Made by a program: the position numbers and the translations under genes. Shown here one piece after another: positions 9,279-48,927 of a DNA stretch of 63,231 nucleotides. Every line of letters begins with the position of its first letter. Within the stretch, counting starts at the first letter, position 1. This stretch comes from Acidimicrobiia bacterium. GTDB taxonomy: Bacteria > Actinomycetota > Acidimicrobiia > Spongiisociales > JAHEDJ01. The notes below the pieces were generated by a model. The model was not told the DNA's origin, did no database searches, and saw nothing but the letters and a program-made list of their open reading frames with translations. Where the stretch lies: the NCBI GenBank assembly GCA_029210695.1, contig JARGFH010000017.1:1-63231 (forward strand), given 5' to 3'.

Positions 9279-10895
9279 ATGACCGAACCTGCAACACCCG
9301 AATCCGAAACGACCGCTCGCGACGTTGAGTTGATCTCGCGCGTCTCACACGAGTTGCGCACACCGCTCACCTCGGTCATTGGCATGCTCGACGTCGTACT
9401 CGATCCGGCTTTGCCGTTAGACGACGGCGAAAGCGCCGAGCTTCTGACCCTCGCCCGTCGCGAAGCGGATCAAATGCAGCATTTGATCGACAACCTCCTC
9501 TCGTATGCCCGGCTGCAACGGGCGACGCTCGTACCGTCCACGGAGGCCATCGATCTGCGACCGATCATCACGCGGGCCCTGGAGCGGCAGGGAGACGTGC
9601 ATCGGCGAACGCACATAGCAGTGGCGGTCGGGATCGGGGCCGTGGGAGACCCGGCGCTCGTGCTCCAGATCATCACCAACCTCATCCAGAATGTACACCG
9701 CTATGCACCGCAAGGCGCGGTCGAGATAGTTGTGGCATCCGACGATGCGGTCACCTCCATTTCGGTGAGCGATGAGGGGCCCGGCGTTCCGGTTGCGATG
9801 GCCGCAGACATCTTCGACACCCGGATACATTCGAGCAAAGGACTCGGCCTTGGTCTCTCCTTGAGCCGGGATCTGGCCAGGTCCATGCAAGGTGATCTGG
9901 TTCTGGACAAGGCACGCCGTGGCGGCGCTACCTTCACCCTGACCCTCCCGACCGCCCGGGTCAAAAGCTCCACTTCTGCAGAACGTCGACCAGAGCTGTC
10001 GGTGGCCACCACGCCGCGCGCCGGACTCCTCGTCGACGTAGCAGCCGCCCTCGCCGAATCGTCTCTCGACCAATCCGTCGCCGGCCTGCAAGGCATCTAC
10101 GCGAAAATCCTCGGCGCCACGAGCGCAGTTCTGATGGTGCCGGACGGGCAAGGACGGTTCCGGGGTCTGGGTGACTTCGCTTCTCTGGAAGGGGTACTGA
10201 TCCCCTCCGGGGATGAGCTGCTCGACCGTGTCATATCCGGGCAGCAGCCGCTACAGATCGAATCCCTTGGCGAAAGCGGTTTCGACCTGTGGGCGGGTGT
10301 CCTTGGTGCCGAATCGGCACTGGTCGTCCCTGTCGTGCTCGACGGAGTCGTAGCCGGGGTCCTTGCGCTCGGGTGGGCCGACGGGCACCTCATGCCCAAC
10401 ACTGGGAACGAGGTTGCCGCAGCCCTGGGAACGATCGCAGCGATTGCCGTCGATCGTTCAAATCTCGCCCATGAGGTCGCGTTCGAAAGATCGGTCAGGG
10501 AGTCGGTGATGGAGGCCCTCCCCATCGCGATCTCGGTGTTCGTAGGTGATCCCCCGAGCCTCGTCTACTGGAACCAGCGCGAACGCGACCTGCTGGCAAT
10601 CGCCGAGGACGGCAGCCGACCGACGGCCCTCCAGGAGACACAGGATCTCTTTGAGGTTTCGTTCGCCGACGGCACCCCGCTGACCCTCGAGAACGCTCCG
10701 GTCGTCGCCGCCATCCGCTCCGGACGAGGGACCGGTCCGTTCTTCCTTCGTATCAGTCGTCTCGACGGACGGGTCGCGTTCACCCGCACCTATTGCGCGC
10801 CGTTCTTCGACGGAAACGGAACAGTGGCCGGCGCAGTCGTCACGTCGGAAGAAGTGGACAAGATGGACGTCGAGTTCCACGGCCTTGCCACCTAG
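9279..10895 (+). CDS. Histidine kinase with N-terminal HisKA/HATPase and C-terminal GAF + PAS-like domains
   Basis: VSHELRTPL at about aa 22, then N box, DEGPG and GLGLGL. These are followed by a GAF-like VVPV.....GVLAL segment and a PAS-like YWNQRE...APFFDGNG.V.GAV segment. Confidence 0.85.
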   Translation: MTEPATPESETTARDVELISRVSHELRTPLTSVIGMLDVVLDPALPLDDGESAELLTLARREADQMQHLIDNLLSYARLQRATLVPSTEAIDLRPIITRALERQGDVHRRTHIAVAVGIGAVGDPALVLQIITNLIQNVHRYAPQGAVEIVVASDDAVTSISVSDEGPGVPVAMAADIFDTRIHSSKGLGLGLSLSRDLARSMQGDLVLDKARRGGATFTLTLPTARVKSSTSAERRPELSVATTPRAGLLVDVAAALAESSLDQSVAGLQGIYAKILGATSAVLMVPDGQGRFRGLGDFASLEGVLIPSGDELLDRVISGQQPLQIESLGESGFDLWAGVLGAESALVVPVVLDGVVAGVLALGWADGHLMPNTGNEVAAALGTIAAIAVDRSNLAHEVAFERSVRESVMEALPIAISVFVGDPPSLVYWNQRERDLLAIAEDGSRPTALQETQDLFEVSFADGTPLTLENAPVVAAIRSGRGTGPFFLRISRLDGRVAFTRTYCAPFFDGNGTVAGAVVTSEEVDKMDVEFHGLAT

Positions 10896-12700: not shown

Positions 12701-15442
12701 GTGATGCGAGAACGGACCGCGGCAGGGAGTCCACCCGACTTCGAGCGTATCGCAGCCGGCATGTCGAGACTGCGACGGCACGGCTATGGCGCCGCCGCCT
12801 CCTTCACGGCCATTGGTGCGATCGGCACGCGCGAGCCGATCTGGACGTTTGCCACACTTCTGGCGGCCGCCGGGTTCGCAGCCGGAAGCGGTTTCAGCAA
12901 TCCTCATCGGCGGCTCATCGCCGGGCTGTTGATCGACCATGTGGTTGCGCTGTCCCTCTGGTGGATGCTCGGGTCCGGCACCGTCGTCGACCTGATTCCG
13001 ATCGTAATCGTCTCGTTGTCCGCCTTCATTCTCCCGTTCCGCATGGCGATATTCACAACCCTGACGGGGATGCTCCTGGTTGCGATGCGAATTCCGCTCC
13101 ACATCGCGGGATCCGACTCGATCTTCCCGATGTACTGGGCAAGCGGACCCGTTCCCTTGTCTGAAGTCGCCGTCTCTACGTTCGCGCTGCTGATCCTGGC
13201 GATGGCCGCCGCCACAGTATTCCTGCGAGTCGGGCGATTGCTCGAGAAGTCGAGTACGCAGTTGGCGAAGTCGGCACAGCGATACCGCACCCTGGTCGAG
13301 GCATCACCGGACGGGATCCTGATTCATCAGGGCGGCTCCCTGAGGTACGTCAACGAGGCCGCCGCCGCGATGCTCGGGTACCGGACTCCGTCGGCCGGGA
13401 TTGGAATGCCGTACCTCGACCATATCGCACCAAAGGACCGGACGGCTGAAATCGAACGGATGCATCTGGTGGCGGAGGGACGGACGACCGACCTGGCCCG
13501 AATCCACCTTCTCAGGACCGATGGTTCCGAACAGATCACAGAAGCAGTCGGCATCCCTACCGACCTCGATGGGCGACCGGCGGTCCAAGTCGTAATGCGA
13601 GACGTCTCTGCAAGAGAAGCCCTCCGGGACACCGAGCAACTGTTCAATACGGCGTTCGACAGTTCGGTCACCGGAATGGCGGTCGTCGACGTCGACGGCA
13701 ACTACCTCAGAGTCAACAGAGCACAATGCGAACTCTTCGGTTACTCCGAGGAAGAGTTCCTCACGATGAACTGGAGAGACATCACCCATCCGGATGATCT
13801 CCCTGACAGCGAGCAAGCCGAAGCAGACATGCTCCGCGGGGTGGGCGACGACTCGTTCGTGTTGCTCAAACGGTATGTCGGTGCTGGGGGAAGACAACTC
13901 ACCGCCATCGTGTCGGTGACGCTCCTGCGGGACCAGGACGGGGCACCCGACTATGTGTATTCCCATGTGGTCGACATGACCGAAGCGACGGCCGCTGCGG
14001 AGGCGTTGCGGACTAGCGAGCAGAGGTACAGGAACCTCTTCGAGCGAATACCGGTCGCCATGTACAGGAGCACGCCGGATGGCGAGGTACTCGATGCGAA
14101 TCCCGCACTCGTTGAGTTGATGGGATTCGAAGCACGCGAATCTCTCGTGAATCTGGCATCGCATGAAATGTATTTAGACCCGAGCGTCCGTCTCGGATGG
14201 AAGACGGCGATCAATCGAGACGGAACCGTTGTCGGGTTCGAGGCCCAACTCCGGCGCAAAGACGGCAAGGTCTTCTGGGGGCAGGACACCGCCAGGATCG
14301 TCCGCGACTCTGACGGCAACACCCTGTACTACGAGGGCGCCATCATCGATGTCTCTGCCCAGAAGACGGCAGAGCAGGCACGCAATCGCCTCACCCGGAT
14401 CATCGAGGCGACCCCCGACATTGTGGTAGTCCTCGACCCGAGCGGCTGGGTCACATACGCCAACTCGGCCGCCCGCCGCCACTTCTCGATCGACGAGTCA
14501 ATGGAACCACCGTACCTCCACGTTTCGCAGGCCCTCGATCGTGCGACCATGCGCCTCCTTATCGAGGACATCATCCCTACCCTCAAAGAAGGCGAGGCCT
14601 GGACGGGTGAATTCGATCTCATTGCACCAGACGGCTCGGGGCTCCCGGTTTCAGCAGTCGGCCTTGCCCACCTCGCTGACGATGGCAGCTTCGCCCGATT
14701 CTCGGCGGTGCTGCGCGACGTGTCGGAACAGGTCGAAGCAACCCGGCAACTGAAAGACCTCGTCCAAACGAAGGACGAATTCGTCGCCTCCGTCAGTCAT
14801 GAGTTGCGGACTCCGCTGACGGCCGTCGTCGGCCTCGCCCAGGAATTGCGGGACAGCTGGAAGATGTTCGATGGGGAGGAACTCGAGGATCTGATCAGGC
14901 TCATCGCCGATCAGGCGACCGAGGTTTCCGCGATCGTGCAGGACCTCCTTGTCGCCGCTCGCGCCGACATAGGGACAATCACGATCAGCCCGACCGTCAT
15001 CCAGGTTTCCGAAGAGGTCGAGGCGGCAATCAAGACAGTCCCACCGGATCTGACCGATCGGATTCAGTTCGACATCACTTCGGTAAGCGCGTGGGCAGAC
15101 CCGGGACGCTTCCGTCAGATAATTCGCAACCTCGTTAGCAATGCCCTCCGCTACGGCGGACCGAGCGTGCGCATCCATGCCCACAACGGGGGCGGTAGGG
15201 CGGTGATCAACGTCACCGATGACGGAGCCGGTATCGCGTTGGAGGATCGCCAGAGGATCTTTGATCCGTACTACCGGGCTCACGATACTCCCTCACAACC
15301 GGCGTCGGTTGGCCTCGGTCTCAGCGTGTCTCGACAACTCGCAGTACTCATGGGCGGCGACTTGAGTTACGACTACTCAGATGGGCTGAGCACCTTCAGT
15401 GTGCGCCTCCCAGCCGGCCGAGGCCCAGACGCCCTCGCCTAG
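12701..15442 (+). CDS. Membrane multi-PAS sensor histidine kinase
   Basis: N-terminal TM region, four PAS repeats, VSHELRTPL, NLVSNA, DDGAG and GLGL motifs. Confidence 0.93.
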   Translation: MMRERTAAGSPPDFERIAAGMSRLRRHGYGAAASFTAIGAIGTREPIWTFATLLAAAGFAAGSGFSNPHRRLIAGLLIDHVVALSLWWMLGSGTVVDLIPIVIVSLSAFILPFRMAIFTTLTGMLLVAMRIPLHIAGSDSIFPMYWASGPVPLSEVAVSTFALLILAMAAATVFLRVGRLLEKSSTQLAKSAQRYRTLVEASPDGILIHQGGSLRYVNEAAAAMLGYRTPSAGIGMPYLDHIAPKDRTAEIERMHLVAEGRTTDLARIHLLRTDGSEQITEAVGIPTDLDGRPAVQVVMRDVSAREALRDTEQLFNTAFDSSVTGMAVVDVDGNYLRVNRAQCELFGYSEEEFLTMNWRDITHPDDLPDSEQAEADMLRGVGDDSFVLLKRYVGAGGRQLTAIVSVTLLRDQDGAPDYVYSHVVDMTEATAAAEALRTSEQRYRNLFERIPVAMYRSTPDGEVLDANPALVELMGFEARESLVNLASHEMYLDPSVRLGWKTAINRDGTVVGFEAQLRRKDGKVFWGQDTARIVRDSDGNTLYYEGAIIDVSAQKTAEQARNRLTRIIEATPDIVVVLDPSGWVTYANSAARRHFSIDESMEPPYLHVSQALDRATMRLLIEDIIPTLKEGEAWTGEFDLIAPDGSGLPVSAVGLAHLADDGSFARFSAVLRDVSEQVEATRQLKDLVQTKDEFVASVSHELRTPLTAVVGLAQELRDSWKMFDGEELEDLIRLIADQATEVSAIVQDLLVAARADIGTITISPTVIQVSEEVEAAIKTVPPDLTDRIQFDITSVSAWADPGRFRQIIRNLVSNALRYGGPSVRIHAHNGGGRAVINVTDDGAGIALEDRQRIFDPYYRAHDTPSQPASVGLGLSVSRQLAVLMGGDLSYDYSDGLSTFSVRLPAGRGPDALA

Positions 15443-15466: not shown

Positions 15467-15516
15467 GTTTTCGCGCGGGGTTCACCCCATATACGGTGCG
15501 ATTCCCGCGCGAAAAC
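15467..15516. repeat. 50-bp palindrome, family 1 copy A
   Basis: GTTTTCGCGCGGG-N24-CCCGCGCGAAAAC, between convergent genes. Confidence 0.92.
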
Positions 15517-15526
15517 GGGTTTGACC

Positions 15527-16738
15527 TCAGAAGTAGTGGGGGCACCACGGCTCGACGTGCCAGGAGAACATGGTGTCGGCGCGCCGCACCGCTTCCGGCG
15601 ATCCGTGCACCCGCCCGGCCTGCTGATACAACGAGAAGCTGCCTCCGCCCAGATACCGGCTCCCCAGAACACCGGCGTCGACGACGAGGTCGGCATCGTC
15701 GGTGGATCTTCTGCATTCGGCTCCGTCCGGACCGCCCTCGAGTGAGAACCGACCACCCTGCTCGGGGAGAAATCGATCGTCGACTTCGATCACAAGACGG
15801 CCTTCCGTCCGATAGCGTCTGGCAGACAAAGCGGCCGGGACATCCATCAACCGGGCCCAAAGCCCATCGACCCGACGGCTGGACAATCGCCTGCTGTCCG
15901 AGAGGAGCACCGAGAGAAGCTCCTGAATGGGACGATTCTGGGTACGAATCTTCTCGACGAGGTCCATCGAGAAGACGAACTGCCAGAGGGCCGCCTCCGC
16001 CATCGGAGTGAGGGCAATGAGCTCAGAGGCGAGGATCTCGTTTTTAGGAAGGTTGTGCTCCCACGTCTCTTTGGCCCGATAGCGAAGGTAACCCAACGCC
16101 GTCCCTTCTTCTTCGTAGATCGCGAACCGATTGGCCGTGAATCCGCCACGCCAGGACTCGAGGTCGGCGAACATGTGATCCCAGACCGCCTCTCGTCGCG
16201 AGAGGAATCCCGGTGTGGTGAGAGCAGCTTCGGCGTACAGGTCCGGCAGTATGCGGCGAGCCCGGTCGGTACCGACCAGCGACACGGTGCCCGGCGTCCC
16301 TGTGCCCGGCTCGAAGGCGGCGTCACGCTTCGCGATCTCCCAGCTTGCCTCGTGGGTGGAAATGCCGTAGCCCAACCGGCCGTAGATGACGCTCTCTGAC
16401 GCTCGCAGCAGCGCCAGCGGCTCCTCTCGCGCTTGAACGTCGGCGAAGTGGTAGCGCATCATCGAGGTGAGGACACCCTTCCGCCGATGGGTAGGCAGAA
16501 CTGCGATAGCGGTGAGCCCGGCGGCCGGGACGGAACCGCCGGGCACCGTCAGGTCGAAACTGAAGGCTCCGCCTGTACCGACGAAGTCCCCATCTTCCAC
16601 GACGACGATGCTGCGGTCGAACTCGTGCACCTTCGCCTCGAGTTCGAGTTCCTCGTCCTTCCCGTCGAAATTGAAGGTCCGTTCCCATACGCTGGCAAAG
16701 GCACGGAACTCGTCGGGTTTGATCGATCGAATGTCCAT
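15527..16738 (-). CDS. Eis-family GNAT acetyltransferase
   Basis: VLPTHRRKG, ASESVIYGRLGYG, LWARLMDVPAALSARRY and a C-terminal SCP2-like domain. Confidence 0.92.
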   Translation of the reverse strand: MDIRSIKPDEFRAFASVWERTFNFDGKDEELELEAKVHEFDRSIVVVEDGDFVGTGGAFSFDLTVPGGSVPAAGLTAIAVLPTHRRKGVLTSMMRYHFADVQAREEPLALLRASESVIYGRLGYGISTHEASWEIAKRDAAFEPGTGTPGTVSLVGTDRARRILPDLYAEAALTTPGFLSRREAVWDHMFADLESWRGGFTANRFAIYEEEGTALGYLRYRAKETWEHNLPKNEILASELIALTPMAEAALWQFVFSMDLVEKIRTQNRPIQELLSVLLSDSRRLSSRRVDGLWARLMDVPAALSARRYRTEGRLVIEVDDRFLPEQGGRFSLEGGPDGAECRRSTDDADLVVDAGVLGSRYLGGGSFSLYQQAGRVHGSPEAVRRADTMFSWHVEPWCPHYF

Positions 16739-18905: not shown

Positions 18906-19024
18906 TCGGTTTCGGTGGTTGCCTTCCATCCGCGAATCCGGACGAAAAGGGGATGACCGGACACCGATAGCGGCGCCGAGGGCGTCCCGTAGACTGGCAC
19001 CTCACGACAACGAACGAGGTGATC

Positions 19025-21691
19025 ATGTCAGATCCGTTCAATGCCCGCTCGACGCTGTCGACGGCGCTCGGCGACCGGACCATCTACCGCCTCGACGCGC
19101 TGAAGTCGATCGGCGACGTCGACGCCCTGCCCTATGCCATCAAGGTCCTCCTCGAAGCCGCGCTGCGGAATTTCGACGGCCACATCGTGACGGATGAGGA
19201 CATCCGCGCAATAGCGTCATACGACGCCACCAAAGTCGGTGAGACCGAGATTGCGTTCTCGCCGGGCCGCGTCGTCCTCCAGGACTTCACCGGTGTTCCG
19301 GCCGTCGTCGACCTTGCCGCCATGCGCTCGGCGGTCGTCAAGATGACGGGTGACGAGTCTGCCGCCCAGAAGGTGAATCCACTCGTGCCGTGCGATCTCG
19401 TGATCGACCACTCCGTGCAAGTCGACGCCTTCAACTCCGGCATGGCGCTCCAGATCAACGCCGACAAAGAGTTCGGACGCAACCGCGAGCGCTACGAGTT
19501 TCTGAAGTGGGGCCAGTCGGCCTTCGACAACTTCCGGGTCGTTCCGCCGGCCACCGGCATCGTCCATCAGGTCAACCTCGAGTACCTCGCCAAGGTCGTC
19601 TGGGACAACGGTGCCGACCTCTATCCGGACAGCCTCGTCGGAACAGACAGCCACACAACAATGATCAACGGCCTCGGCGTTGTCGGCTGGGGAGTGGGCG
19701 GCATCGAGGCAGAAGCGGTCATGGTCGGACAACCGATCTACATGCTGTTGCCTGAAGTGGTCGGATTCAAACTCACCGGCAAACTCGCTGAGGGGGCCAC
19801 CGCTACCGACCTGGTGCTCAAGGTCACACAGATGCTGCGCGGCCACGGCGTCGTCGGCAAGTTCGTCGAGTTCTACGGACCGGGCCTCGCAGGTATGCCT
19901 CTCGCCAACCGGGCGACCATCGCCAACATGGCTCCGGAGTACGGAGCGACCATGGGGTTCTTCCCCGTCGACGAGCAGACCATTCGATACCTGCGGTTGA
20001 CCGGTCGGGACGAAGCTCTCGTCGCCACGGTTGAGCAGTACTACCGCGAGCAGGGGCTGTGGCGTGAGGACGATCGGGAGATCGTCTACTCCTCCCACCT
20101 CGAGCTCGACATGGGGACGATAGAACCGGCGCTGGCCGGCCCGAAGCGTCCGCAGGATCGCATCGTTCTTTCAAACATGAAGGCTCAGTGGCATACCGAT
20201 CTCGACGCCACGTTCGGCAAGGCAGGTGACGCCGCAGCGGTGGATGTCGAATCCGAGCAGCAGAGATTCGAGATGCACCACGGCGATGTGGTTGTGGCGG
20301 CGATCACGTCGTGCACCAACACATCGAATCCGGATGTGATGGTCGGCGCGGGATTGGTCGCCAGGAAGGCCAGGGCGAAGGGCCTGACACGCAAGCCGTG
20401 GGTCAAGACCTCACTGGCGCCCGGATCGACGGTCGTGACGGAGTACCTGACGCAGTCGGGCCTGCTGGAGGACCTCGAAGCAACCGGTTTCTACACGGTG
20501 GGGTATGGGTGCACAACGTGTATCGGCAACTCCGGACCTCTCCCCGAGGAGATCACGGCCGGCATCAACGAGGGCGATCTGGTGGCCGCCTCGGTGTTGT
20601 CGGGCAACCGCAACTTCGAGGGGCGCATAAACCCGGACGTACGGGCGAACTATCTCGCCTCACCACCGTTGGTCGTCGCCTACGCACTAGCCGGAACCGT
20701 CGACATCGATCTGACTACGGAACCCATCGGGCAGGATCATGCCGGCAGCGACGTGTACCTCCGCGATCTCTGGCCGTCGCAAGCTGAAGTCGACGAGATC
20801 GTGGCGGCCAACGTCACCGAGAAGCAATTCCGGACCCAGTATGCGGATGTGTTTCGCGGGCCGGAAGCCTGGCGGGCAATCGAAACCTCGGGTGGCGCCC
20901 TGTACTCATGGGATGCCGCGTCCACCTATGTGCAGGAGCCACCATTCTTCGACGACCTGACGACCGACACGGGCACGATCGTGCCAATTTCCGGAGCGAG
21001 GGTGTTGGCCAAACTCGGCGACTCGGTCACCACCGACCACATCAGTCCGGCCGGATCTATCGCCCCCGACTCACCTGCCGGCCGTTATCTGACGGCGAAC
21101 GGTGTGGCTCCGGCGATGTTCAATTCGTATGGCTCGCGGCGCGGCAACGACCAGGTGATGACCAGGGGCACGTTCGCCAATATCCGGGTTCGCAACCAGT
21201 TGGCGCCGGGAACAGAAGGTGGGTGGACAACCGACTTCACCGACGGTGAGGTCAAGAGCATCTACGACGCCAGCCTCAACTACAAGGCGGCCGGCACTCC
21301 GCTGGTGGTCCTCGGCGGCATCGACTACGGCATGGGATCATCGCGCGACTGGGCCGCCAAGGGGACCTTCCTCCTCGGCGTGAAGGCCGTGATCGCCCGG
21401 TCCTTCGAGCGGATCCACCGATCCAACCTGATCGGCATGGGTGTGCTTCCGCTCGAGTTCCCCGAAGGTACCGACGCCGACGCGCTGGGGCTCGACGGAA
21501 CGGAGACGTTCGACATAACCGTCGACGACTCGATCCAGCCGCGCCAGGGCGTGGTCGTAAAGGCGACCAAGGCCGACGGCACCGTGATCGAGTTCACCGC
21601 CACCTGCCGGATCGACACGCCGGTCGAGGTCGACTATTACCGCAACGGAGGCATCCTCCACACGGTCCTGAAACAGATGGCCTTGAGCTAG
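19025..21691 (+). CDS. acnA: Aconitate hydratase A
   Basis: [34 protein letters not shown] and TTDHISP motifs. Confidence 0.98.
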
Positions 21692-21705
21692 TCCCCCAAA
21701 ACGCC

Positions 21706-21755
21706 GTTTTCGCGCGGGGTTTCCACCCTATGTGGGGTGAATCCCGCGCGAAAAC
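21706..21755. repeat. 50-bp palindrome, family 1 copy B
   Basis: Same 13-bp arms and 24-nt spacer; contains the stop codon of the DUF559 gene. Confidence 0.92.
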
Positions 21756-22690
21756 ACATCGGGATGGCCAAGTTCGAGCAGGAAGCTCCGAGTCTTGGCA
21801 ACGACTTCGTGGGGCCTCTGCCAGAGTTCATCGTCCCAAATCGTGAGCACCCTCAAACCCATGCTGGAGAGTGACTGGAATCGACGATCGTCTGACTCCC
21901 GATCGAGCTTCGAGGTGTGATAGCGGCGACTCAGAACCTCGACGACGCCGCCGACCTGCTCATAGAAGAGATCAACCCGGCCGATAATTCCGCCGTCCCC
22001 AAGCACAACCTGACGGCGCGGCACCGGCAATCCAGCTTCGCTCAGCAGGGCAAGGGTCCTCGCTTCATTACCGCTCTCGGGCGGCACGAAATCGCCGAGG
22101 CGTGCTGCAATCAGCTCCCGAATCAGCCTAATGCCGTTGCGGCCCCGCGCCGCCAGTCGATCGAGTAGCGCACTAAGAACCGGCCCGTTGAGAAGGCCCA
22201 TCGCCCAGGCGTTGTCGAGCGCCCGTTCGGTCTTTGCCGGATGTACCATTCCAGCCAGATGGAACATGGTCAGGGCCGGGGACGTCACCGGAATCTGTCT
22301 CAGCCAGACCACGTGGTCTAGCGGGAAGTCCTTCTGATAATGCACGACGGCGAGGCGGCCACGACGGTCGATGCCCTGTCTTGGAACCGTGACGTGGAAT
22401 GGCTCCGAAAGTCGAAATCCGGGGATATCCCAGTAGGCAGCAGCAGAAGTGTGAGAGAGCGCCGCTCCGGGTGGGCTATCAAGCACGGCGGCCATCGCTC
22501 TCTTTTCGCCCGAATCGGGCGTTCCAACGAGCTCGAGGACCTCTGGAGAAACGGACTTCCAATCACCACGCTGTATCCGGCGTTCAAGGCGCCGATAGCT
22601 CACACCAAGGTCATGAGCCTGCTGCCTGCCGACGAGGCCGTACTGGCGTTCGGCGAGAGCTCTGAGTTCGAGGTCGGAATGCATAGCCAC
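21728..22690 (-). CDS. AbiEi-type wHTH + DUF559 (Vsr-like) endonuclease-domain protein
   Basis: LAERQYGLV.R.Q N-terminus, ALSHTSAA..W, VTSP..T, ES..E, RVDL.Y..VVEV...YH and D..R...L...G.RVL.IW motifs. Confidence 0.85.
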   Translation of the reverse strand: MAMHSDLELRALAERQYGLVGRQQAHDLGVSYRRLERRIQRGDWKSVSPEVLELVGTPDSGEKRAMAAVLDSPPGAALSHTSAAAYWDIPGFRLSEPFHVTVPRQGIDRRGRLAVVHYQKDFPLDHVVWLRQIPVTSPALTMFHLAGMVHPAKTERALDNAWAMGLLNGPVLSALLDRLAARGRNGIRLIRELIAARLGDFVPPESGNEARTLALLSEAGLPVPRRQVVLGDGGIIGRVDLFYEQVGGVVEVLSRRYHTSKLDRESDDRRFQSLSSMGLRVLTIWDDELWQRPHEVVAKTRSFLLELGHPDVFSRGIHPT

Positions 22691-22737
22691 ACCCTGACCT
22701 ATCCGGACTCGAGAATCTAGAGGGTTGATCTCCCCCT

Positions 22738-22787
22738 GTTTTCGCGCGGGAATCCCACCGCATAAGGTGCTATTCCCGCGCGAAAAC
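22738..22787. repeat. 50-bp palindrome, family 1 copy C
   Basis: Same arms and spacer length; lies between divergent genes. Confidence 0.92.
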
Positions 22788-22811
22788 GGGGAGGGAGTAG
22801 TGTCCCTGGCT

Positions 22812-23387
22812 ATGGATCAACCCCTCGTTTGGATCGACCTGGAGATGACCGGACTCGATCCGGATAACGACGTCATCCTGGAGATCGCATGCATCGTCAC
22901 CGATGGGAACCTCTCGGAAATCGTCGAGGGTCCGAACCTCATCCTCAACGCCACCGCCGAACAGCTCGACGGTATGGTCGAAATCGTCACAGAGATGCAC
23001 ACGAAATCGGGCCTCGTCGAAGAGGTCCCGCACTCCACGATGACCGTCGCTCAAGCAGAGAGACTCGTACTCGAGTTCATCGCCAAGCACGTTCCCGGGC
23101 CCGGATTGGCTCCGCTGGCCGGAAATAGCGTGCACGCCGACCGCGCCTTCCTTCGTCGCTTCATGCCTGCCCTCAACGACTTCCTGCACTATCGCATCGT
23201 CGACGTCTCGACCATCAAGGAACTCGCCAGGCGCTGGTTCCCTCAGGCAATAGAGAACGCTCCGAAAAAACACGGCGACCATCGAGCGCTGGCCGACGTC
23301 CGGGAGTCCATCCAGGAACTCCGCTACTTCCGCGAGGCCGTGTTCCGGCCGCCGGCGACCAGGCCGGAAACCGAATTCCCTAGCTGA
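22812..23387 (+). CDS. orn: Oligoribonuclease
   Basis: LVWIDLEMTGL, LAGNSV..DR.FL, HYR.VDVST.KEL and HRAL.D motifs. Confidence 0.96.
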   Translation: MDQPLVWIDLEMTGLDPDNDVILEIACIVTDGNLSEIVEGPNLILNATAEQLDGMVEIVTEMHTKSGLVEEVPHSTMTVAQAERLVLEFIAKHVPGPGLAPLAGNSVHADRAFLRRFMPALNDFLHYRIVDVSTIKELARRWFPQAIENAPKKHGDHRALADVRESIQELRYFREAVFRPPATRPETEFPS

Positions 23388-26151: not shown

Positions 26152-26742
26152 ATGGTCTGGTTGGCCCTCGTCCTATTCCTCGCGGCGACCATCGCGGTCA
26201 TTCGTGGTGGCAAACTGCGCAACCTGTCCGACATTCGATTGCGCTTGTGGTGGCTGCTGATACTGGGCTTCGGACTCCAGTCGATCACAGGTTTCTTCCC
26301 ACAAGACGCCACCTGGGCAAGGCCCACCGGCATCACGCTGATCCTGGTTTCATACGTCCCGTTGCTCATCATGGTGATCCTCAACAGGGATAGGCCCGGA
26401 ATGTGGTTGGCAGGACTCGGGATCCTCATGAACTTCTCAGTGATCGCGGCCAACGGCGGTATGCCGGTACTCGAAGGAGCCGCCATCGTGGCAGGCGGGT
26501 TTCCCGAGTCGGTGGACCTAACCAGCAACTACAAACACCTCGTCCTCGACGAAGGCACACGTCTGGCGTTCCTCGCCGACGTCATCCCATTGCGGTTCAT
26601 CGGCCAGGGTCAGGTCATCTCACTCGGTGATGTGTTGCTGGCCGTGGGCCTCGGCCGGTTCCTGGAGCACGAGCTGCGCCGCCCTGTGCGCTGGTTCAAA
26701 CACGGAGCGCAGGCGGAGGCCGGCTCGGCGCGTCGCGTCTAA
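26152..26742 (+). CDS. DUF5317-family membrane protein
   Basis: N..PG..L.GLG.L.N..VI.ANGGMPV, TRL.FLADVIP and VISLGDVL motifs; family recognised from memory. Confidence 0.8.
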   Translation: MVWLALVLFLAATIAVIRGGKLRNLSDIRLRLWWLLILGFGLQSITGFFPQDATWARPTGITLILVSYVPLLIMVILNRDRPGMWLAGLGILMNFSVIAANGGMPVLEGAAIVAGGFPESVDLTSNYKHLVLDEGTRLAFLADVIPLRFIGQGQVISLGDVLLAVGLGRFLEHELRRPVRWFKHGAQAEAGSARRV

Positions 26743-26755
26743 CACCCCCAACCTC

Positions 26756-26805
26756 GTTTTCGCGCGGGATTCGCTCCATATACGGTGGAATCGCCGCGCG
26801 AAAAC
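26756..26805. repeat. 50-bp palindrome, family 1 copy D
   Basis: Same arms with one mismatch, extended by a perfect 10-bp CCCCAACCTC/GAGGTTGGGG pair. Confidence 0.92.
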
Positions 26806-26815
26806 GAGGTTGGGG

Positions 26816-28048
26816 TTACAGGTTGGCGTCGGCGATTTCGCGGAGGGCTTCCACGACGTCGGGGTCGTAGTCATAAGCGGCACCCCGGTGCAATACCTCG
26901 AGCGCCTCGAGGTGGGAAAACCCGAGTTCCGTCGTCGCGTGGTCGTAGGCGCTGGTGGCCTTGATCACTTTGGACGCCATCGGTAACTCGAGGTCCTTGA
27001 ACTCGCCGGGGCGCCGGTAGGGATGATGCTGCTGGCGAACCAGGTGAGCGATGCGATCGAGGTAGGGCGACTCGGCGATGATCTCGGCGCCCCACCTGGC
27101 GATGTCCTCGTCGGTGAAACCCATCTTGATCACATTCGGCTCATTCAGCGTCACCCGACCGATGTCGTGCATCATTGCCGCGAACCTGATGTCCTCTACC
27201 TCGTCCGGCGAAAGGCCGAGTCGCTGCCCGACCTCCACCGCCATGGCCGACGTCCGATCGCCGTGACCGTCCGGTGACAAACCGGCGACCTCCGGGATCC
27301 GCGAGAGCGCACGGATCGTCTGCCAGTAGGTGGTCCTCGCATCCTGATACCGATGAAATGCCAGATGAGCGAACGCATACGGCACGGCTACCACGATCAC
27401 CGCAGCCCACAGGTCGATCCTGGCGTAGGCGAATCCGAACAAGGCTCCCGTCGCCAGCAGACTCAACGCCACCATCCAGTCCTTGACGGCCAGCAGCCAG
27501 AGGTAGCGGCGGCTGATGCGCCGCCGGCCGAACGTCACGAACGCCCACAAGAACATCTCGAGCATGAACCAGGTCGCCGATCCGAGCGTGAAGCCGATCA
27601 AGTCGGCGGCGTCCGAGTCGAGACCCCAGCCGCCCAGCGTCGGGGCCACATATCGGAGAACCGTCGCGTAGACGCCGGCGCCGACTGCCCTGCGCAATGC
27701 GATGGCCAAGGAAATCACCGCTTCTTCGCCACGCAGAACGGCGATCGCCCACGAAACAAGCGCTCCTCCCACGAAGACGGCGCCGCTGGCGACCAGATCG
27801 ATGGCGCCGCCAGGTGTCCGCATCACGAGCGGAACGGCCGCCGCCACTGCAAACCCAAGAGATAGCCGGTTGCCACTAGTCGCCGGAACCATGATTTGCG
27901 ACGCGCCGGCCAGTGCAGCGACGCCCACGAGGATCTCCGCCAGTTCACCGCGAACTTCAATCAGCAAGAGAGCGAAGAGGGCGGCGGCAGCCAACGCCCA
28001 CATCACGTCCATCAGCCGTGAACGCGGCGCCGGCTCAGTTCTGCCCAC
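26816..28048 (-). CDS. Membrane protein with degenerate HD-GYP domain
   Basis: Multi-TM N-terminus, GH..R and MHDIG present; no GYP loop and TSAYD instead of ADAFD. GTG start with GGAGG RBS. Confidence 0.85.
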   Translation of the reverse strand: MGRTEPAPRSRLMDVMWALAAAALFALLLIEVRGELAEILVGVAALAGASQIMVPATSGNRLSLGFAVAAAVPLVMRTPGGAIDLVASGAVFVGGALVSWAIAVLRGEEAVISLAIALRRAVGAGVYATVLRYVAPTLGGWGLDSDAADLIGFTLGSATWFMLEMFLWAFVTFGRRRISRRYLWLLAVKDWMVALSLLATGALFGFAYARIDLWAAVIVVAVPYAFAHLAFHRYQDARTTYWQTIRALSRIPEVAGLSPDGHGDRTSAMAVEVGQRLGLSPDEVEDIRFAAMMHDIGRVTLNEPNVIKMGFTDEDIARWGAEIIAESPYLDRIAHLVRQQHHPYRRPGEFKDLELPMASKVIKATSAYDHATTELGFSHLEALEVLHRGAAYDYDPDVVEALREIADANL

Positions 28049-29378
28049 GCGTCCTCCCTTCCGCCATCCGGCGCGCCTGCTCGTCGTCGGTGAAGCCGGG
28101 CGAGCCGTACCGCTCTCCGGTACGGGCGAGAGCCCGCGCCAGGGACTCGACGATGTGCGGATCGAATTGCGTCCCGGCATTGCGCCGAAGTTCGTCAAAT
28201 GCGTAATCCTGGCTGAGGGCCATCCGGTATGAACGGGTGCTGGTCATCGCATCGAAGGCGTCCGCTACCGCCAGAATCCGGGCCTCCATGGCGGGACGCT
28301 GGCCGTGTTGGTGACCACTTCCGCCGTAGCCGTTGCCGTCGAACTGCGAGTGATGACCGGAGGCGATTTCCACCATCGGCCGGAGGAACTCGACCTCGGC
28401 GAGGATGTCTTCCACCACGTGGGCGTGAGCCTGAAGATTCTCGTACTCATCCTCGGTGAGACGGCCTCGTTTGCGAATGAGATCACGCGGGACTGCCAGC
28501 TTGCCGACATCGTGGATCAGGGCGGCGACGCGAACCCGCTCGAGCCGGGAACCACGAAAGCCGAGATCCTCGCCGATCAGCTGAGCGAAGTAGGCGACCC
28601 GCTCGGTATGGCCCCTGGTATATAGGTCCTTGGCCTCGAGGGCTTTGATGAATCCCCGCAGCGTCGCCTCATGGGCCTCCCGGAGTTCTCCGTAGGAGGC
28701 GAAGGTGTAGTGGCCGGCAACGAAGACCACGAGAATCAGAGGCAACACCGCAAATCCGACGGCGCTGTAGACGATGCCGAGGAATCCGCCGAGCACACCC
28801 ATCACGAGGTATGACACGAGAATCATCGCCATCCCCGACCACGGCCGAATGTCGCGCCGCCCAAAGGCAAGGCGCACAATCGTCCGAACCTGGCCGTAGT
28901 TCAACACTGCGTAGACAATGGCCGCCACAGATGCGGCACCTACCACCCGGGCGATATTCCCGGCTGCGCCCGGGTCGATGCCAGACGGGATCAGCAGGTC
29001 GAGCGCAAGGCCGGCGGATCCTGCGCTGACCACCAGCTGTCCGAAGTTCACGGCTGGTTGGAACCAGCGACGCTCCCGGATGTCGCGAGGCACCAGGGGG
29101 CCGAGCGCGGCGATGGTGGCGATGCCCAACGCGGCACTGCTGCCCTCGAGTGCAAAAATCGTGCCGCCGGTGAGTGCCACCATGATGGTCGAACTCGCCA
29201 TTAGCTGATCGTTTATCTCGACGGCCCTCCATTCGAGATACACGAATGGGACGGCGAACGCCGCCCAGAGTGCGACATTGGGGAATGACTGCGTGAGGAT
29301 CAGCGCCGTGAGCACGATCACACCAATCGCCACATAGGCGACGGCCAGTCGGATTCGTACAAGCCTCTGGGTACTCAC
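28035..29378 (-). CDS. Membrane HD-GYP phosphodiesterase
   Basis: Multi-TM N-terminus, EAKD.YT.GH.ERV, HDVGK, HH..FDG.GYG and RILAVADAFDAMTS.R.YR motifs. Confidence 0.9.
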   Translation of the reverse strand: MSTQRLVRIRLAVAYVAIGVIVLTALILTQSFPNVALWAAFAVPFVYLEWRAVEINDQLMASSTIMVALTGGTIFALEGSSAALGIATIAALGPLVPRDIRERRWFQPAVNFGQLVVSAGSAGLALDLLIPSGIDPGAAGNIARVVGAASVAAIVYAVLNYGQVRTIVRLAFGRRDIRPWSGMAMILVSYLVMGVLGGFLGIVYSAVGFAVLPLILVVFVAGHYTFASYGELREAHEATLRGFIKALEAKDLYTRGHTERVAYFAQLIGEDLGFRGSRLERVRVAALIHDVGKLAVPRDLIRKRGRLTEDEYENLQAHAHVVEDILAEVEFLRPMVEIASGHHSQFDGNGYGGSGHQHGQRPAMEARILAVADAFDAMTSTRSYRMALSQDYAFDELRRNAGTQFDPHIVESLARALARTGERYGSPGFTDDEQARRMAEGRTRGQN

Positions 29379-36650: not shown

Positions 36651-36737
36651 CTGTATCGGTGGCTCCCCGCGCTGGGGTTGACATGAGACACCGATGAGAT
36701 AGTTTTGTAGTGGAGCGGGCGGAGCATTGGAGGATTG

Positions 36738-37679
36738 ATGCTCGCGCCGTCGCCTACCCGTCGAACGATCACGACACTGGCCGTCGCCCTATTCGTGATC
36801 GTGTCCGGTGCCACGTATACCGTTCAACCGGGTGACACCCTCTCTGAGATCGCCGCCAAGAACGGGACGACGATCCGAGCGCTCGTCGAGAAGAACAATC
36901 TCCCGAACGCCGACCGCATCTACGTCGGTCAGAAGTTGAACCTCCCGGATGCCTCGGCGGCCGGCGCATCATCTGCGACCCACATCGTCCAGTCCGGTGA
37001 GTCGCTCTCAACGATTGCAGCCAAATATGGATTAACCGTCGTCCAACTGGCGGCCGCCAACGGCATCACCAACACCAACGTGGTGTACATCGGCACCAAG
37101 CTCTCGCTGTCCGGTCCGATTTCGGACTTCACACCAGGTTCCGGATCTTCCGGTGCTCACGTTGTGGCAAAGGGCGACACGCTCGGCAAGATCGCCGCCG
37201 CCTACGGCACGACAGTCTCAGTACTCGCCGAACTCAACGGCCTGGCCAACCCCAATGTGATCCGCATCGGGCAGGTCCTCACGGTGCCGGGCGGTGGCTG
37301 GATCTGCCCCGTTCCCGGAGGAACGTACTTCAACGACTACGGATTCCCTCGCACCGGCGGCCGTTTCCACGAGGGCACCGATCTCTTCGCCACCAGGGGC
37401 ACGCCGGTCCTGGCTCCGGTGTCGGGACGCGTCGAGTTCACAATCGGCACCATCGGAGGCATGCAGTACAAGTTGTACGGCGACGACGGCGCCACCTACA
37501 TCGGCTCCCACATGGACAGCTTCGGAACGGCAGGCAAAGTAACGGCCGGTACCGTGATCGGGTCGGTCGGGGATTCTGGCAATGCCAAGGGATCGCGCAC
37601 TCACCTGCACTTCGAGATCCACCCGGACGATGGAGCCGCGGTCAACCCGTACCCCTACCTCCAGGATGCTTGTCGGTAG
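36738..37679 (+). CDS. Secreted 3xLysM + M23 peptidase
   Basis: Three V..GDTL..IA LysM repeats; H.G.D and HLHFE motifs. Confidence 0.93.
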   Translation: MLAPSPTRRTITTLAVALFVIVSGATYTVQPGDTLSEIAAKNGTTIRALVEKNNLPNADRIYVGQKLNLPDASAAGASSATHIVQSGESLSTIAAKYGLTVVQLAAANGITNTNVVYIGTKLSLSGPISDFTPGSGSSGAHVVAKGDTLGKIAAAYGTTVSVLAELNGLANPNVIRIGQVLTVPGGGWICPVPGGTYFNDYGFPRTGGRFHEGTDLFATRGTPVLAPVSGRVEFTIGTIGGMQYKLYGDDGATYIGSHMDSFGTAGKVTAGTVIGSVGDSGNAKGSRTHLHFEIHPDDGAAVNPYPYLQDACR

Positions 37680-48899: not shown

Positions 48900-48927
48900 G
48901 GGTGGGGCGGCTTCGGCCGCCCCACCC
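48900..48927 (+). other. Intercistronic 12-bp GC hairpin with UUCG loop (likely mRNA stabiliser)
   Basis: GGGTGGGGCGGC-TTCG-GCCGCCCCACCC with no U-tract, after the binding-protein gene. Confidence 0.75.

What the first reader, a model, noticed from the sequence alone, without database searches (positions are those of the whole stretch)
21706..22787. AbiEi/DUF559 nuclease gene bracketed by a fixed-length 50-bp palindrome that is also dispersed solo
Seen: four copies (15467, 21706, 22738, 26756), each exactly 13+24+13 bp, with arms GTTTTCGCGCGGG and related spacers (about ATTCACCCCATATACGGTGGAAT). Two copies flank the gene between acnA and orn, and one of them supplies its stop codon. Copy C lies between divergent genes, so it is not simply a terminator. 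There is no AbiEii toxin partner. Known: REP/RAYT systems have this layout with an HUH transposase. Inference: a REP-like selfish system driven by a Vsr-like nuclease.
Basis: partly seen in the sequence, partly recalled or inferred. Interest (0 to 1): 0.75.

Follow-up and report, generated by a model that had tools for sequence, protein, structure and literature searches.

The report
Nuclease gene bracketed by dispersed palindromes
A 50-base hairpin repeat scattered through this bacterium's genome is tied to one nuclease gene that it brackets, an arrangement like the known REP-transposase partnerships but built on a different kind of enzyme.

Summary
Four 50-bp palindromes are at the stated places, and two of them bracket a 320-aa gene whose stop codon lies in one palindrome's loop.

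The element is a REP-like hairpin with a 23-24 bp stem, a 4-nt loop and invariant outer arms. The inner stem keeps pairing through compensatory changes. All 32 copies seen in Acidimicrobiia-type DNA are exactly 50 bp.

The protein is a complete AbiEi-type DNA binder fused to a Vsr/DUF559-type nuclease. Its closest fold match is the homing endonuclease I-Bth0305I.

The main new result is that the palindrome can be read in the proteins of the gene's relatives. Of 121 family members, 54 end F-x-R-x5-stop and 15 read through a full 16-codon palindrome. In 13 of those 15, the residues coded by the two arms covary as complementary DNA requires. A control family showed this 0 of 120 times. Family members also sit on gene-sized contigs far more often than the control (26/120 vs 2/119).

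Gene and palindromes are conserved in place in a relative about 90% identical, and the gene's dN/dS is 0.11.

The gene-palindrome link is therefore real and old. That the nuclease moves the palindromes is inferred, not shown: no empty site, no new insertion and no binding data were obtained.

The parts
15467..15516 (.). Solo palindrome A, between the convergent 3' ends of a PAS histidine kinase (12701-15442, +) and a GNAT/SCP2 acetyltransferase (15527-16738, -)
   Evidence: (I3); an orthologous copy in Ww199 has one arm mismatch
21706..21755 (.). Palindrome B, 14 bp after the aconitase stop. It supplies the last 8 codons and the TAG stop (21728-21730) of the nuclease gene.
   Evidence: (I6)
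21728..22690 (-). Gene for a 320-aa fusion protein. Residues ~8-185 are AbiEi-type (winged-helix DNA binder plus its C-terminal domain). Residues ~225-306 are a Vsr/DUF559/EDxHD-type endonuclease domain with D240, E251, H258, D267 and R270 invariant in 56 aligned relatives.
   Evidence: dN/dS 0.11 against the Ww199 ortholog; GC3 0.66 against 0.76-0.82 in neighbours
22738..22787 (.). Palindrome C, 47 bp upstream of the nuclease gene's start and 12 bp upstream of the orn GTG (22800). It is a possible operator of the nuclease gene. Its extended outer stem (22729-22796) includes the Shine-Dalgarno-like GGAGGGAG of orn (22790-22797).
   Evidence: (I1)
26756..26805 (.). Solo palindrome D, between the convergent 3' ends of a DUF5317 gene (26152-26742, +) and an HD-domain gene (26816-28198, -). 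The outer stem extends to 26746-26815.
   Evidence: (I2)
19019..21691 (+). Context: aconitase gene (left border of the cassette)
22800..23387 (+). Context: RNase T/oligoribonuclease-type exonuclease gene (right border of the cassette). Removing 21706-22787 would leave a 26-bp acnA-orn junction.

Best explanation
The 50-bp element is a REP-like hairpin repeat scattered through intergenic DNA of a group of Acidimicrobiia genomes. Its outer 12-13 bp are invariant. Its inner stem can change as long as it still pairs, and its length is fixed.

The gene it brackets encodes a complete AbiEi-type DNA-binding module fused to a Vsr/DUF559-type endonuclease domain with intact catalytic residues. Gene and palindrome form a cognate pair that has stayed together through long divergence of the gene family, in the way RAYT transposases stay with their REP/REPIN repeats, but with a hydrolytic PD-(D/E)xK-type nuclease in place of a HUH transposase.

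Most likely mechanism (inferred): the protein binds the conserved outer arms as a symmetric dimer through its AbiEi modules, which would explain the fixed 50-bp length. It then nicks or cuts near the centre. The break is repaired from another copy by gene conversion, as in homing. This would spread and homogenise the palindromes and now and then copy the whole palindrome-gene-palindrome cassette into a solo palindrome. The upstream copy probably also serves as the gene's operator.

Shown here: the repeat family, its hairpin covariation and fixed length, the protein's folds and conserved catalytic residues, the family-wide gene-palindrome linkage, purifying selection, and vertical inheritance.

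Inferred only: binding, cutting, dimerisation, and any movement.
For: 1. Repeat family. There are 32 copies in Acidimicrobiia-type DNA: 4 in the window, 16 in MAG Ww199, 5 in CSMAG_694, 3 in Dino_bin56, 2 in LejiaD_63_54 and 2 in SMAG_U7924.

2. Hairpin. 87.2% of cells are paired. Ten of 24 pairs show changes on both sides, in 52 cells. The covariation score is 0.174 against 0.086 in shuffles (0 of 500 reach it), and slid controls pair at 56% or less.

3. Linkage seen in proteins. Of the query plus the 120 listed homologs, 54 end F-x-R-x5-stop, the frame in which the window's arm is read as FSRG and the loop TAG stops the ORF. Fifteen read through a full 16-codon palindrome, 6 are near-variants and 46 have none. 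In 13 of the 15 read-throughs the arm residues covary as complementary DNA requires: Ser TCG with Arg CGA, or Trp TGG with Pro CCA. One protein (P0081) reads through two tandem palindromes. The same patterns occur 0 of 120 times in a control family.

4. The junction lies at six different distances from the conserved W285 (18, 28, 29, 33, 34 and 40 residues), always in the stopping frame.

5. Upstream copies. Four homologs with over-long predicted N-termini begin with arm-like peptides 42-57 nt before the true start, compared with 47 nt in the window.

6. Gene-sized contigs. For 26 of 120 homologs the longest contig exceeds the ORF by less than 250 nt, against 2 of 119 for a control family of similar length from the same window (Fisher p = 8e-7). 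This fits assembly breaks at repeats on both sides. The window unit is 1082 bp.

7. Protein. The AF2 model has pLDDT 90.2. The N-terminal ~200 aa match AbiEi 6y8q (TM 0.67), and PADLOC AbiEi gives E = 3.3e-28. The C-terminal ~100 aa match the I-Bth0305I catalytic domain 3r3p (TM 0.81-0.82), NGO0050 3hrl (0.81) and Vsr (0.44-0.46). The family profile hits 3hrl at 8e-5 and 3r3p at 7e-4. The D/E/H/D residues are invariant.

8. Precedents, from abstracts only. I-Bth0305I is a homodimer that footprints ~60 bp and is centred on a pseudopalindrome (PMC3239194). AbiEi binds inverted repeats in its own promoter (PMC7319586).

9. The gene is functional and old at this site. dN/dS is 0.11, and B, C, D and A are all conserved in Ww199 at ~90% nt identity.

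10. None of the ORFs next to the copies is a Y1/HUH transposase.
Against: - Seen from the palindrome's side there is no enrichment. Only 4 of the 32 copies (B and C, and their two orthologs in Ww199) touch a family gene. A profile of the family found no other member in about 760 kb of fetched DNA plus the window.
- In 4 of the 5 MAGs that hold the palindrome, no family gene lies within 10 kb of any exact-arm copy. However, only those neighbourhoods were seen, and gene-sized contigs would tend to be lost from bins.
- There is no direct sign of movement. All four copies and the gene are in the same places in the window and in Ww199, no empty acnA-orn site could be examined, and flanks show no target-site duplication (0 of 32).
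- B and C differ at about half of their inner positions, so they are not a recent duplication.
- Pfam's nuclease models score below their gathering cut-offs.
- A palindrome-coded tail also ends an unrelated MFS-transporter ORF.
- Hairpins with the same 12-nt arms occur in a Terriglobia MAG (16 copies, 43 bp) and in two Betaproteobacteria MAGs (38 bp), with no family gene within 10 kb. The arms may therefore be read by something else.
- Only two genomic contexts of the gene family are known: acnA/orn, and a downstream GATase gene in the fusions P0063 and P0069.
- The contig-length contrast rests on a single control family.
Confidence: 0.45

Rival explanations
1. Regulatory coupling only. The palindromes are a general host hairpin (REP-like, mRNA-end or terminator-type) spread by some other means. 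The gene family keeps one copy as its transcript end and one as the operator to which its AbiEi module binds for autoregulation. The nuclease domain acts on something else.
For: AbiEi antitoxins autoregulate by binding inverted repeats in their own promoters (abstract of PMC7319586). Copy C lies 47 bp upstream of the gene's start. Solo copies favour 3' gene ends: of the 28 non-window copies, 11 are convergent, 11 tandem, 5 divergent and 1 unknown. The gene is single-copy in the sampled DNA, in a stable position and under purifying selection.
Against: This reading leaves the conserved nuclease domain without a role. The hairpin is not followed by a T-run (T's precede the stem and A's follow it), and no palindrome was called terminator-like. 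About 16 copies in a whole MAG cannot serve as the general terminator. The linkage is roughly hundred-fold above that background (75 of 121 family members against 0 of 120 controls). It was also re-made at six junction positions.
Confidence: 0.22
2. Autonomous homing cassette. The palindrome-gene-palindrome unit (~1.08 kb) is itself the mobile element. It enters a solo palindrome by cut-and-repair, using the two flanking copies as homology arms. Many solo copies are what remains after recombination between the two flanking copies deletes the gene, like solo LTRs.
For: For 26 of 120 homologs the longest contig is gene-sized, against 2 of 119 for the control. GC3 is 0.66 against 0.76-0.82 in neighbours, both here and in Ww199. 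Removing 21706-22787 leaves a compact 26-bp acnA-orn junction with the usual C-rich and G-rich flanks. The junction positions are diverse. The best fold match is a homing endonuclease.
Against: Only one copy of the gene was seen per sampled genome. The gene has not moved between the window and Ww199. B and C are not alike inside. No empty site has been seen. The gene is absent from plasmid and phage collections.
Confidence: 0.18
3. Classical REPs mobilised by a RAYT-type (HUH) transposase encoded elsewhere in the genome. The nuclease gene merely lies in a spot where such repeats tend to settle.
For: The dispersed short palindromes in tight intergenic gaps, without target duplications, look like REPs. 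The whole genomes were not searched for a RAYT.
Against: RAYT genes are flanked by their own REPs, yet none of the ORFs next to the 32 copies is a Y1 transposase. Four of those ORFs have no family match. Chance settlement cannot explain palindrome-coded tails in 75 of 121 family members with arm covariation.
Confidence: 0.07
4. A defence or toxin-antitoxin-like module: an AbiEi-type sensor/repressor fused to a nuclease effector, with the palindromes incidental.
For: PADLOC AbiEi models match residues 8-185 at E = 3.3e-28. The fold matches AbiEi 6y8q.
Against: There is no AbiEii partner and no defence neighbours; the gene sits between acnA and orn. This reading does not explain the linkage to the palindrome.
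Confidence: 0.05

Closest known systems
REP/REPIN-RAYT systems (repetitive extragenic palindromes with their REP-associated tyrosine transposase)
   Same: Short palindromes are dispersed in intergenic DNA. A cognate gene is flanked by copies of the same repeat, is single-copy in the DNA seen, is vertically inherited and is under purifying selection. Repeat sequence varies by lineage. For the REPIN-RAYT side I saw only the search listing and abstracts (bioRxiv 10.1101/2022.05.22.493013, PMC3337134, 10.1101/119735).
   Different: The enzyme is an AbiEi-type binder fused to a Vsr/PD-(D/E)xK-type hydrolytic nuclease, not a HUH Y1 transposase. The repeat is one long, fixed-length 50-bp hairpin. The copy number is low: 14 exact-arm copies in the whole Ww199 MAG plus 2 near-exact. 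The repeat overlaps the gene's coding end in frame.
EDxHD / Vsr-like homing endonucleases (I-Bth0305I, PDB 3r3p)
   Same: The catalytic domain has the same fold (TM 0.81-0.82; profile E = 7e-4). The build is multidomain, with a separate DNA-binding part. I-Bth0305I is a homodimer with a ~60-bp footprint centred on a pseudopalindrome (abstract of PMC3239194), which is close to a 50-52 bp palindrome.
   Different: This gene is free-standing between two chromosomal genes, not inside an intron or intein. Its DNA-binding part is AbiEi-like. The presumed target is a multi-copy repeat rather than one site in a conserved gene. No activity is shown.
AbiE type IV toxin-antitoxin systems (AbiEi antitoxin with AbiEii nucleotidyltransferase toxin)
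   Same: The N-terminal ~185-200 residues match whole AbiEi. AbiEi binds inverted repeats in its own promoter (abstract of PMC7319586), and here a palindrome lies 47 bp upstream of the start.
   Different: There is no AbiEii gene. A nuclease domain is fused in cis.
Hairpin-ended IS200/IS605-type elements and their palindrome-only derivatives (recalled from general knowledge; not looked up here)
   Same: Subterminal hairpins flank a small gene, palindromic non-autonomous copies exist, and there is no target-site duplication.
   Different: The enzyme class differs, and here the two ends are copies of the same symmetric palindrome.

Membership tests
REP/REPIN-RAYT system | Short palindromic repeats dispersed in extragenic DNA, many copies per genome | tested here: met
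   There are 32 copies in Acidimicrobiia-type DNA, all intergenic or overlapping gene ends by up to 28 bp. The number per genome is modest: 14 exact-arm copies in the Ww199 MAG.
REP/REPIN-RAYT system | Cognate gene flanked by copies of the repeat | tested here: met
   B and C bracket the gene in the window and in Ww199. Protein tails and N-terminal extensions indicate the same in homologs.
REP/REPIN-RAYT system | The cognate gene encodes a HUH/Y1 (IS200/IS605-like) tyrosine transposase | tested here: not met
   Pfam, PADLOC and Foldseek give AbiEi plus a Vsr/DUF559-type nuclease. No Y1 transposase was found among ORFs next to any copy.
EDxHD (Vsr-like) homing endonucleases | Vsr-type catalytic domain with conserved acidic and His residues | tested here: met
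   3r3p TM 0.81-0.82 and profile E = 7e-4. D240, E251, H258 and D267 are invariant in 56 sequences.
EDxHD (Vsr-like) homing endonucleases | Gene lies in an intron or intein, or next to its cleavage site, and is copied into cut alleles | not testable with these tools
   The gene is free-standing between acnA and orn. No empty allele was available and there is no activity assay.
DUF559 (PF04480) / REase_MTES_1575 (PF18741) | Score at or above Pfam's gathering cut-off | tested here: not met
   17.6 vs 20.6 bits and 21.7 vs 38.2 bits. Many homologs carry these domains in the precomputed column, and the fold agrees, so this is a diverged relative rather than a clean member.
AbiE type IV toxin-antitoxin | AbiEi-type antitoxin | tested here: met
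   AbiEi_4 25.2 bits against a cut-off of 25; PADLOC AbiEi 3.3e-28; 6y8q TM 0.67.
AbiE type IV toxin-antitoxin | Adjacent AbiEii (DUF1814) nucleotidyltransferase toxin in a two-gene operon | tested here: not met
   The neighbours are aconitase and an RNase T-type exonuclease.
Intrinsic (rho-independent) terminator | G+C-rich hairpin followed by a run of T | tested here: not met
   The stem starts with GTTTTC and ends with GAAAAC followed by G, on both strands. None of the palindromes in 21500-23000 was called terminator-like.
DDE-type MITE / insertion sequence | Terminal inverted repeats with a target-site duplication | tested here: not met
   Direct-repeat flanks of 2-8 bp were seen in 0 or 1 of 32 copies at every offset, no more than expected.

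The most novel reading that the evidence does not exclude
A second, enzymatically unrelated class of REP-type replicators. A fixed-length 50-bp hairpin is recognised and cut by its own AbiEi-Vsr fusion nuclease and spreads by break-and-repair (homing into dispersed repeats). The palindrome-gene-palindrome cassette would be the autonomous form and the solo palindromes its non-autonomous copies or footprints. By extension, the very large family of AbiEi-DUF559 fusion proteins of Actinobacteria-type genomes (24,598 representative clusters at E <= 0.001) would be repeat-associated nucleases rather than orphan antitoxins.
Probability: 0.3. Interest if true: 0.9.

Novelty: new variant of a known kind. 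Interest (0 to 1): 0.77.

Why it matters
REP-type repeats are so far tied to one enzyme class, the RAYT HUH transposases. A cognate pair built on a hydrolytic Vsr-type nuclease would show that the same genome-resident repeat lifestyle evolved on a different chemistry.

It would also give a first functional context to a huge, uncharacterised family of AbiEi-DUF559 fusions: 24,598 representative clusters at E <= 0.001.

It offers a simple bench test, protein against a 50-bp hairpin.

The finding also yields a practical method. A DNA palindrome can be detected, with its arm covariation, in protein databases through ORFs that end in it or read through it.

In the library searched, no paper holds DUF559 together with AbiEi. 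The three papers that hold DUF559 together with 'palindrom' are unrelated by title and abstract. None holds Acidimicrobiia together with 'repetitive extragenic palindrom'. The 25 papers holding DUF559 were seen only as a listing of 22 titles and abstracts.

Tried and rejected
- Rfam at gathering threshold on the whole window gave only a tRNA, with no family at the palindromes.
- The sigma-70 promoter and terminator scan of 21500-23000 placed nothing at the palindromes.
- tblastn of the protein against plasmids and phages found no match. Whether more distant family members have palindromes of their own could therefore not be tested on DNA.
- A search for longer (fused) forms of the protein found none, which the tool itself calls weak evidence.
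- The profile search of 1.84 billion representatives gave the size of the family. At 50% clustering the tail-bearing clade collapses: only 2 of the 146 new representatives carry the tail.
- Three pairs of orthologous regions between different MAGs (65-80% nt identity) were compared for filled and empty sites. The palindromes are not at orthologous positions in 3 of 3 comparisons, but gene order or the intergenic DNA also differs, so none is a clean empty site.
- An empty acnA-orn site could not be examined.
Paralogs per genome and source organisms of the homologs stayed unchecked.
- Complex prediction (two copies of the protein) was not available, so dimerisation is untested.
The tail evidence is from proteins only.
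- Chance co-location was considered and rejected because of the family-wide tails.
- Plain terminators were considered and rejected because no T-run follows the stem.
Full report
**1. The observation**

The arm GTTTTCGCGCGGG occurs ten times in the window at up to two mismatches, against 3.49 expected; 0 of 100 shuffles reach ten. Eight of these matches form four 50-bp palindromes at 15467, 21706, 22738 and 26756. Seven arms are exact and one has a single mismatch. The other two matches are lone arms with two mismatches, as chance would give.

The four copies align without gaps. As single strands they fold far better than shuffles: -22 to -35.4 kcal/mol for 74-nt stretches, z from -4.4 to -9.8.

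The ORF 21728-22690 (-) gives 320 aa. Its TAG lies in the loop of copy B, and its last eight residues, FSRGIHPT, are read from the palindrome. The neighbours are aconitase (19019-21691, +) and an RNase T/orn-type exonuclease. The exonuclease's in-frame GTG at 22800 follows a GGAGGGAG that abuts copy C. A, B and D lie between convergent gene ends, and C lies between divergent starts. No AbiEii gene is present.

**2. What the repeat is**

It returned 42 loci.

With up to two mismatches allowed per arm, the fetched DNA plus the window hold 50 copies:
- 32 are in Acidimicrobiia-type DNA: window 4, MAG Ww199 16, CSMAG_694 5, Dino_bin56 3, LejiaD_63_54 2, SMAG_U7924 2. Every one of them is exactly 50 bp.
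- 16 copies of 43 bp are in one Terriglobia MAG.
- 2 copies of 38 bp are in two Betaproteobacteria MAGs.

The base just outside each arm is C in 53 of 64 pooled flanks, so the unit is effectively C+50+G.

On the 32 copies, a 24-pair stem with a 4-nt loop has 87.2% of cells paired. Ten pairs have changes on both sides, in 52 cells. The covariation score is 0.174 against 0.086 in shuffles (0 of 500 reach it), and versions slid by 1-3 columns pair at 56% or less. The outer 12 bp never vary, which is partly because the search required them. The inner stem differs between genomes but keeps pairing.

The copies fill tight intergenic gaps, often 2-30 bp from the ORF ends. Of the 28 non-window copies, 11 are between convergent genes, 11 between tandem genes, 5 between divergent genes and 1 is unknown. 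These counts come from a crude ORF caller, and I corrected two window rows by hand.

The flanking ORFs are housekeeping genes such as dnaK, uvrB, mnmA, sufS, ftsK, RNase J, pth and glpK. I scanned 47 of the 54 flanking ORFs with NCBIfam. The other 7 are orthologs of window ORFs already scanned. Nine ORFs without a match were then scanned with Pfam, and 4 still have none. None is a transposase.

There is no target-site duplication, no Rfam family and no T-run after the stem. This is a REP-like repeat. It is not a canonical terminator and not a DDE-type MITE.

**3. What the gene is**

Pfam gives AbiEi_4 at its cut-off, and DUF559 and MTES_1575 below theirs. PADLOC's AbiEi models match residues 8-185 at 3.3e-28.

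An AlphaFold2 model built on 56 relatives has pLDDT 90.2. Foldseek against the PDB gives:
- N-terminal ~200 residues: the whole AbiEi antitoxin 6y8q (TM 0.67), and Rv2827c.
- C-terminal ~100 residues: the catalytic domain of the homing endonuclease I-Bth0305I (3r3p, TM 0.81-0.82), the DUF559 protein NGO0050 (3hrl, 0.81) and Vsr (0.44-0.46).

The family profile finds 3hrl at 8e-5 and 3r3p at 7e-4 by sequence. D240, E251, H258, D267 and R270 are invariant. The protein is therefore a DNA binder fused to a probably active Vsr-type nuclease.

**4. Conservation**

The window is 89-90% identical and syntenic to contig JAHEDK010000008.1 of MAG Ww199 over window 11594-36678. The gene (89% aa identity) and all four palindromes are at the same places there. 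The gene's dN/dS is 0.11 with dS 0.52. Thirteen of the 14 neighbouring genes give 0.01-0.19; my orn row was mis-framed and should be ignored. The gene's GC3 is 0.66 in both genomes, against 0.76-0.82 for the neighbours measured in the window.

**5. The link between gene family and palindrome**

A search of the 5.8-billion-protein collection gave 340 relatives at E <= 0.001 among the 8000 candidates scored; the best 120 were listed.

The ends of these proteins show the palindrome. Of the 121 proteins (query included), 54 end F-x-R-x5-stop, with F eight residues from the end. This is the frame in which the window's arm reads FSRG and the loop TAG stops the ORF. Fifteen lack that stop and read through a complete 16-codon palindrome. 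Six are near-variants. Forty-six show nothing, and most of these are the more distant hits that carry classical DUF559 domains.

In the 15 read-throughs, the residue coded by the left arm and the one coded by the right arm covary as reverse-complementary DNA requires. Ser (TCG) goes with Arg (CGA) in 8 and Trp (TGG) with Pro (CCA) in 5, making 13 of 15. Two do not fit. One protein (P0081) reads through two palindromes in tandem. Two (P0063, P0069) run on into a glutamine-amidotransferase gene, a genomic context different from acnA/orn.

The same patterns occur 0 of 120 times in a control family, the LysM-M23 peptidase relatives of window ORF 36735-37679.

The palindrome joins the ORF at six different distances from the invariant W285: 18 residues in 47 proteins, 28 in 7, 29 in 4, 33 in 2, 34 in 8 and 40 in 1. 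The junction has therefore been remade or remodelled repeatedly, always in the stopping frame.

For the upstream copy the evidence is thinner. Four homologs with over-long predicted N-termini start with arm-like peptides 42-57 nt before the true start, against 47 nt in the window.

Independent support for repeats on both sides comes from contig lengths. For 26 of 120 homologs the longest contig exceeds the ORF by less than 250 nt, against 2 of 119 for the control (Fisher p = 8e-7; among contigs under 3 kb, 26 of 65 against 2 of 41). The window's palindrome-gene-palindrome unit is 1082 bp. This rests on one control family, and I could not see the contigs themselves.

**6. Results that cut the other way**

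- A profile of the 121 proteins found no further family member in the six-frame translation of all fetched DNA plus the window. So only 4 of the 32 copies touch a family gene, and in 4 of the 5 MAGs no exact-arm copy has one within 10 kb.
- There is no evidence of movement between the window and Ww199.
- Three orthologous regions between more distant MAGs have palindromes at different places, but none is a clean filled-versus-empty pair.
- B and C differ at about half of their inner positions.
- An unrelated MFS-transporter ORF in L023 also ends ...FSRGDPTS* in a palindrome.
- The same 12-nt arms occur on shorter hairpins in two other phyla without the gene nearby. In the Terriglobia MAG they sit inside a longer conserved repeat.

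**7. Reading**

The link between gene and palindrome is real, specific to one clade of a very large family, and old. The family has 24,598 representative clusters at E <= 0.001 and 1,947 at E <= 1e-30, and only 2 of the 146 new representatives carry the tail.

The arrangement is that of a RAYT with its REPs: a single flanked gene, vertically kept, with repeat variants that differ by lineage. I saw only abstracts for that comparison. The enzyme is not a HUH transposase, so this is not a member of that system.

The closest working model is a homing-type nuclease. By its abstract, I-Bth0305I is a homodimer with a ~60-bp footprint centred on a pseudopalindrome. AbiEi proteins bind inverted repeats (abstract).

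I therefore think it most likely (0.45) that the protein reads the two invariant arms as a dimer, which would fix the length at 50 bp. It would then cut near the centre, and repair from other copies would spread and homogenise the repeats and keep the gene bracketed.

Rival readings are: regulation only (0.22); an autonomous homing cassette with solo copies as footprints (0.18, a bolder form of the same idea); a RAYT elsewhere in the genome (0.07); and a defence module (0.05). Binding, cutting, dimerisation and mobility are all inferred.

**8. Novelty**

No paper in the searchable library holds DUF559 together with AbiEi. None holds Acidimicrobiia together with 'repetitive extragenic palindrom'. 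The three papers that hold DUF559 with 'palindrom' are unrelated by title and abstract. I rate the finding a new variant of a known kind: a REP-like repeat with a cognate gene of a different enzyme class.

Noticed in passing
L005, L007, L009-L011, L015, L016, L020, L024, L026, L028, L034-L036 (match at about 10001-10043 in each): One Terriglobia MAG holds 16 copies of a 43-bp hairpin with the same 12-nt outer arms as the window's palindrome. The hairpin is embedded in a longer repeat with conserved flanks of some 40-60 nt on one side. No AbiEi-DUF559 family gene lies within 10 kb of any copy. Why the arms are identical across phyla is unexplained.
   Followed up: partly
L008 10001-10038; L029 1454-1491: Two Betaproteobacteria MAGs each hold a 38-bp hairpin with the same 12-nt arms. 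Its stem is extended by complementary flanks, tctcgt on the left and acgaga on the right.
   Followed up: no
L023 10023-11294 (-): An MFS-transporter ORF of MAG Ww199 ends inside a solo palindrome with the tail ...LFSRGDPTS*, in the same reading frame as the nuclease gene's tail. The palindrome can therefore supply stop codons to unrelated genes.
   Followed up: partly
window 22729-22796: The stem of copy C extends outward: 31-nt arms, 84% complementary, -30.3 kcal/mol. The extension pairs a C-rich stretch with the GGAGGGAG just upstream of the orn GTG at 22800. If transcribed, the hairpin could mask orn's ribosome-binding site. In Ww199 the right flank is kept and the left flank differs.
   Followed up: no
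proteins P0122-P0267: 34 of the 146 new representatives of the wider AbiEi-DUF559 family end in Ala-Ala, and many end ...RRAA or ...LAAA. This may be another conserved feature at the 3' end of these genes, but no DNA was available to check.
   Followed up: no
window 21728-22690: The nuclease gene's GC3 is 0.66, both here and in its Ww199 ortholog, against 0.76-0.82 for the neighbouring genes measured in the window. This codon composition is atypical for the host.
   Followed up: partly
window 48900-48927: A perfect 12-bp G+C-rich inverted repeat with a 4-nt loop lies right after the ORF 47298-48890. It is unrelated in sequence to the 50-bp family.
   Followed up: no
window 26816-29378 (-): Two HD-domain (HD_5) ORFs lie in tandem on the minus strand. 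Their longest-ORF calls overlap by 164 nt (26816-28198 and 28035-29378), so the start of the downstream one is probably called too far upstream.
   Followed up: no
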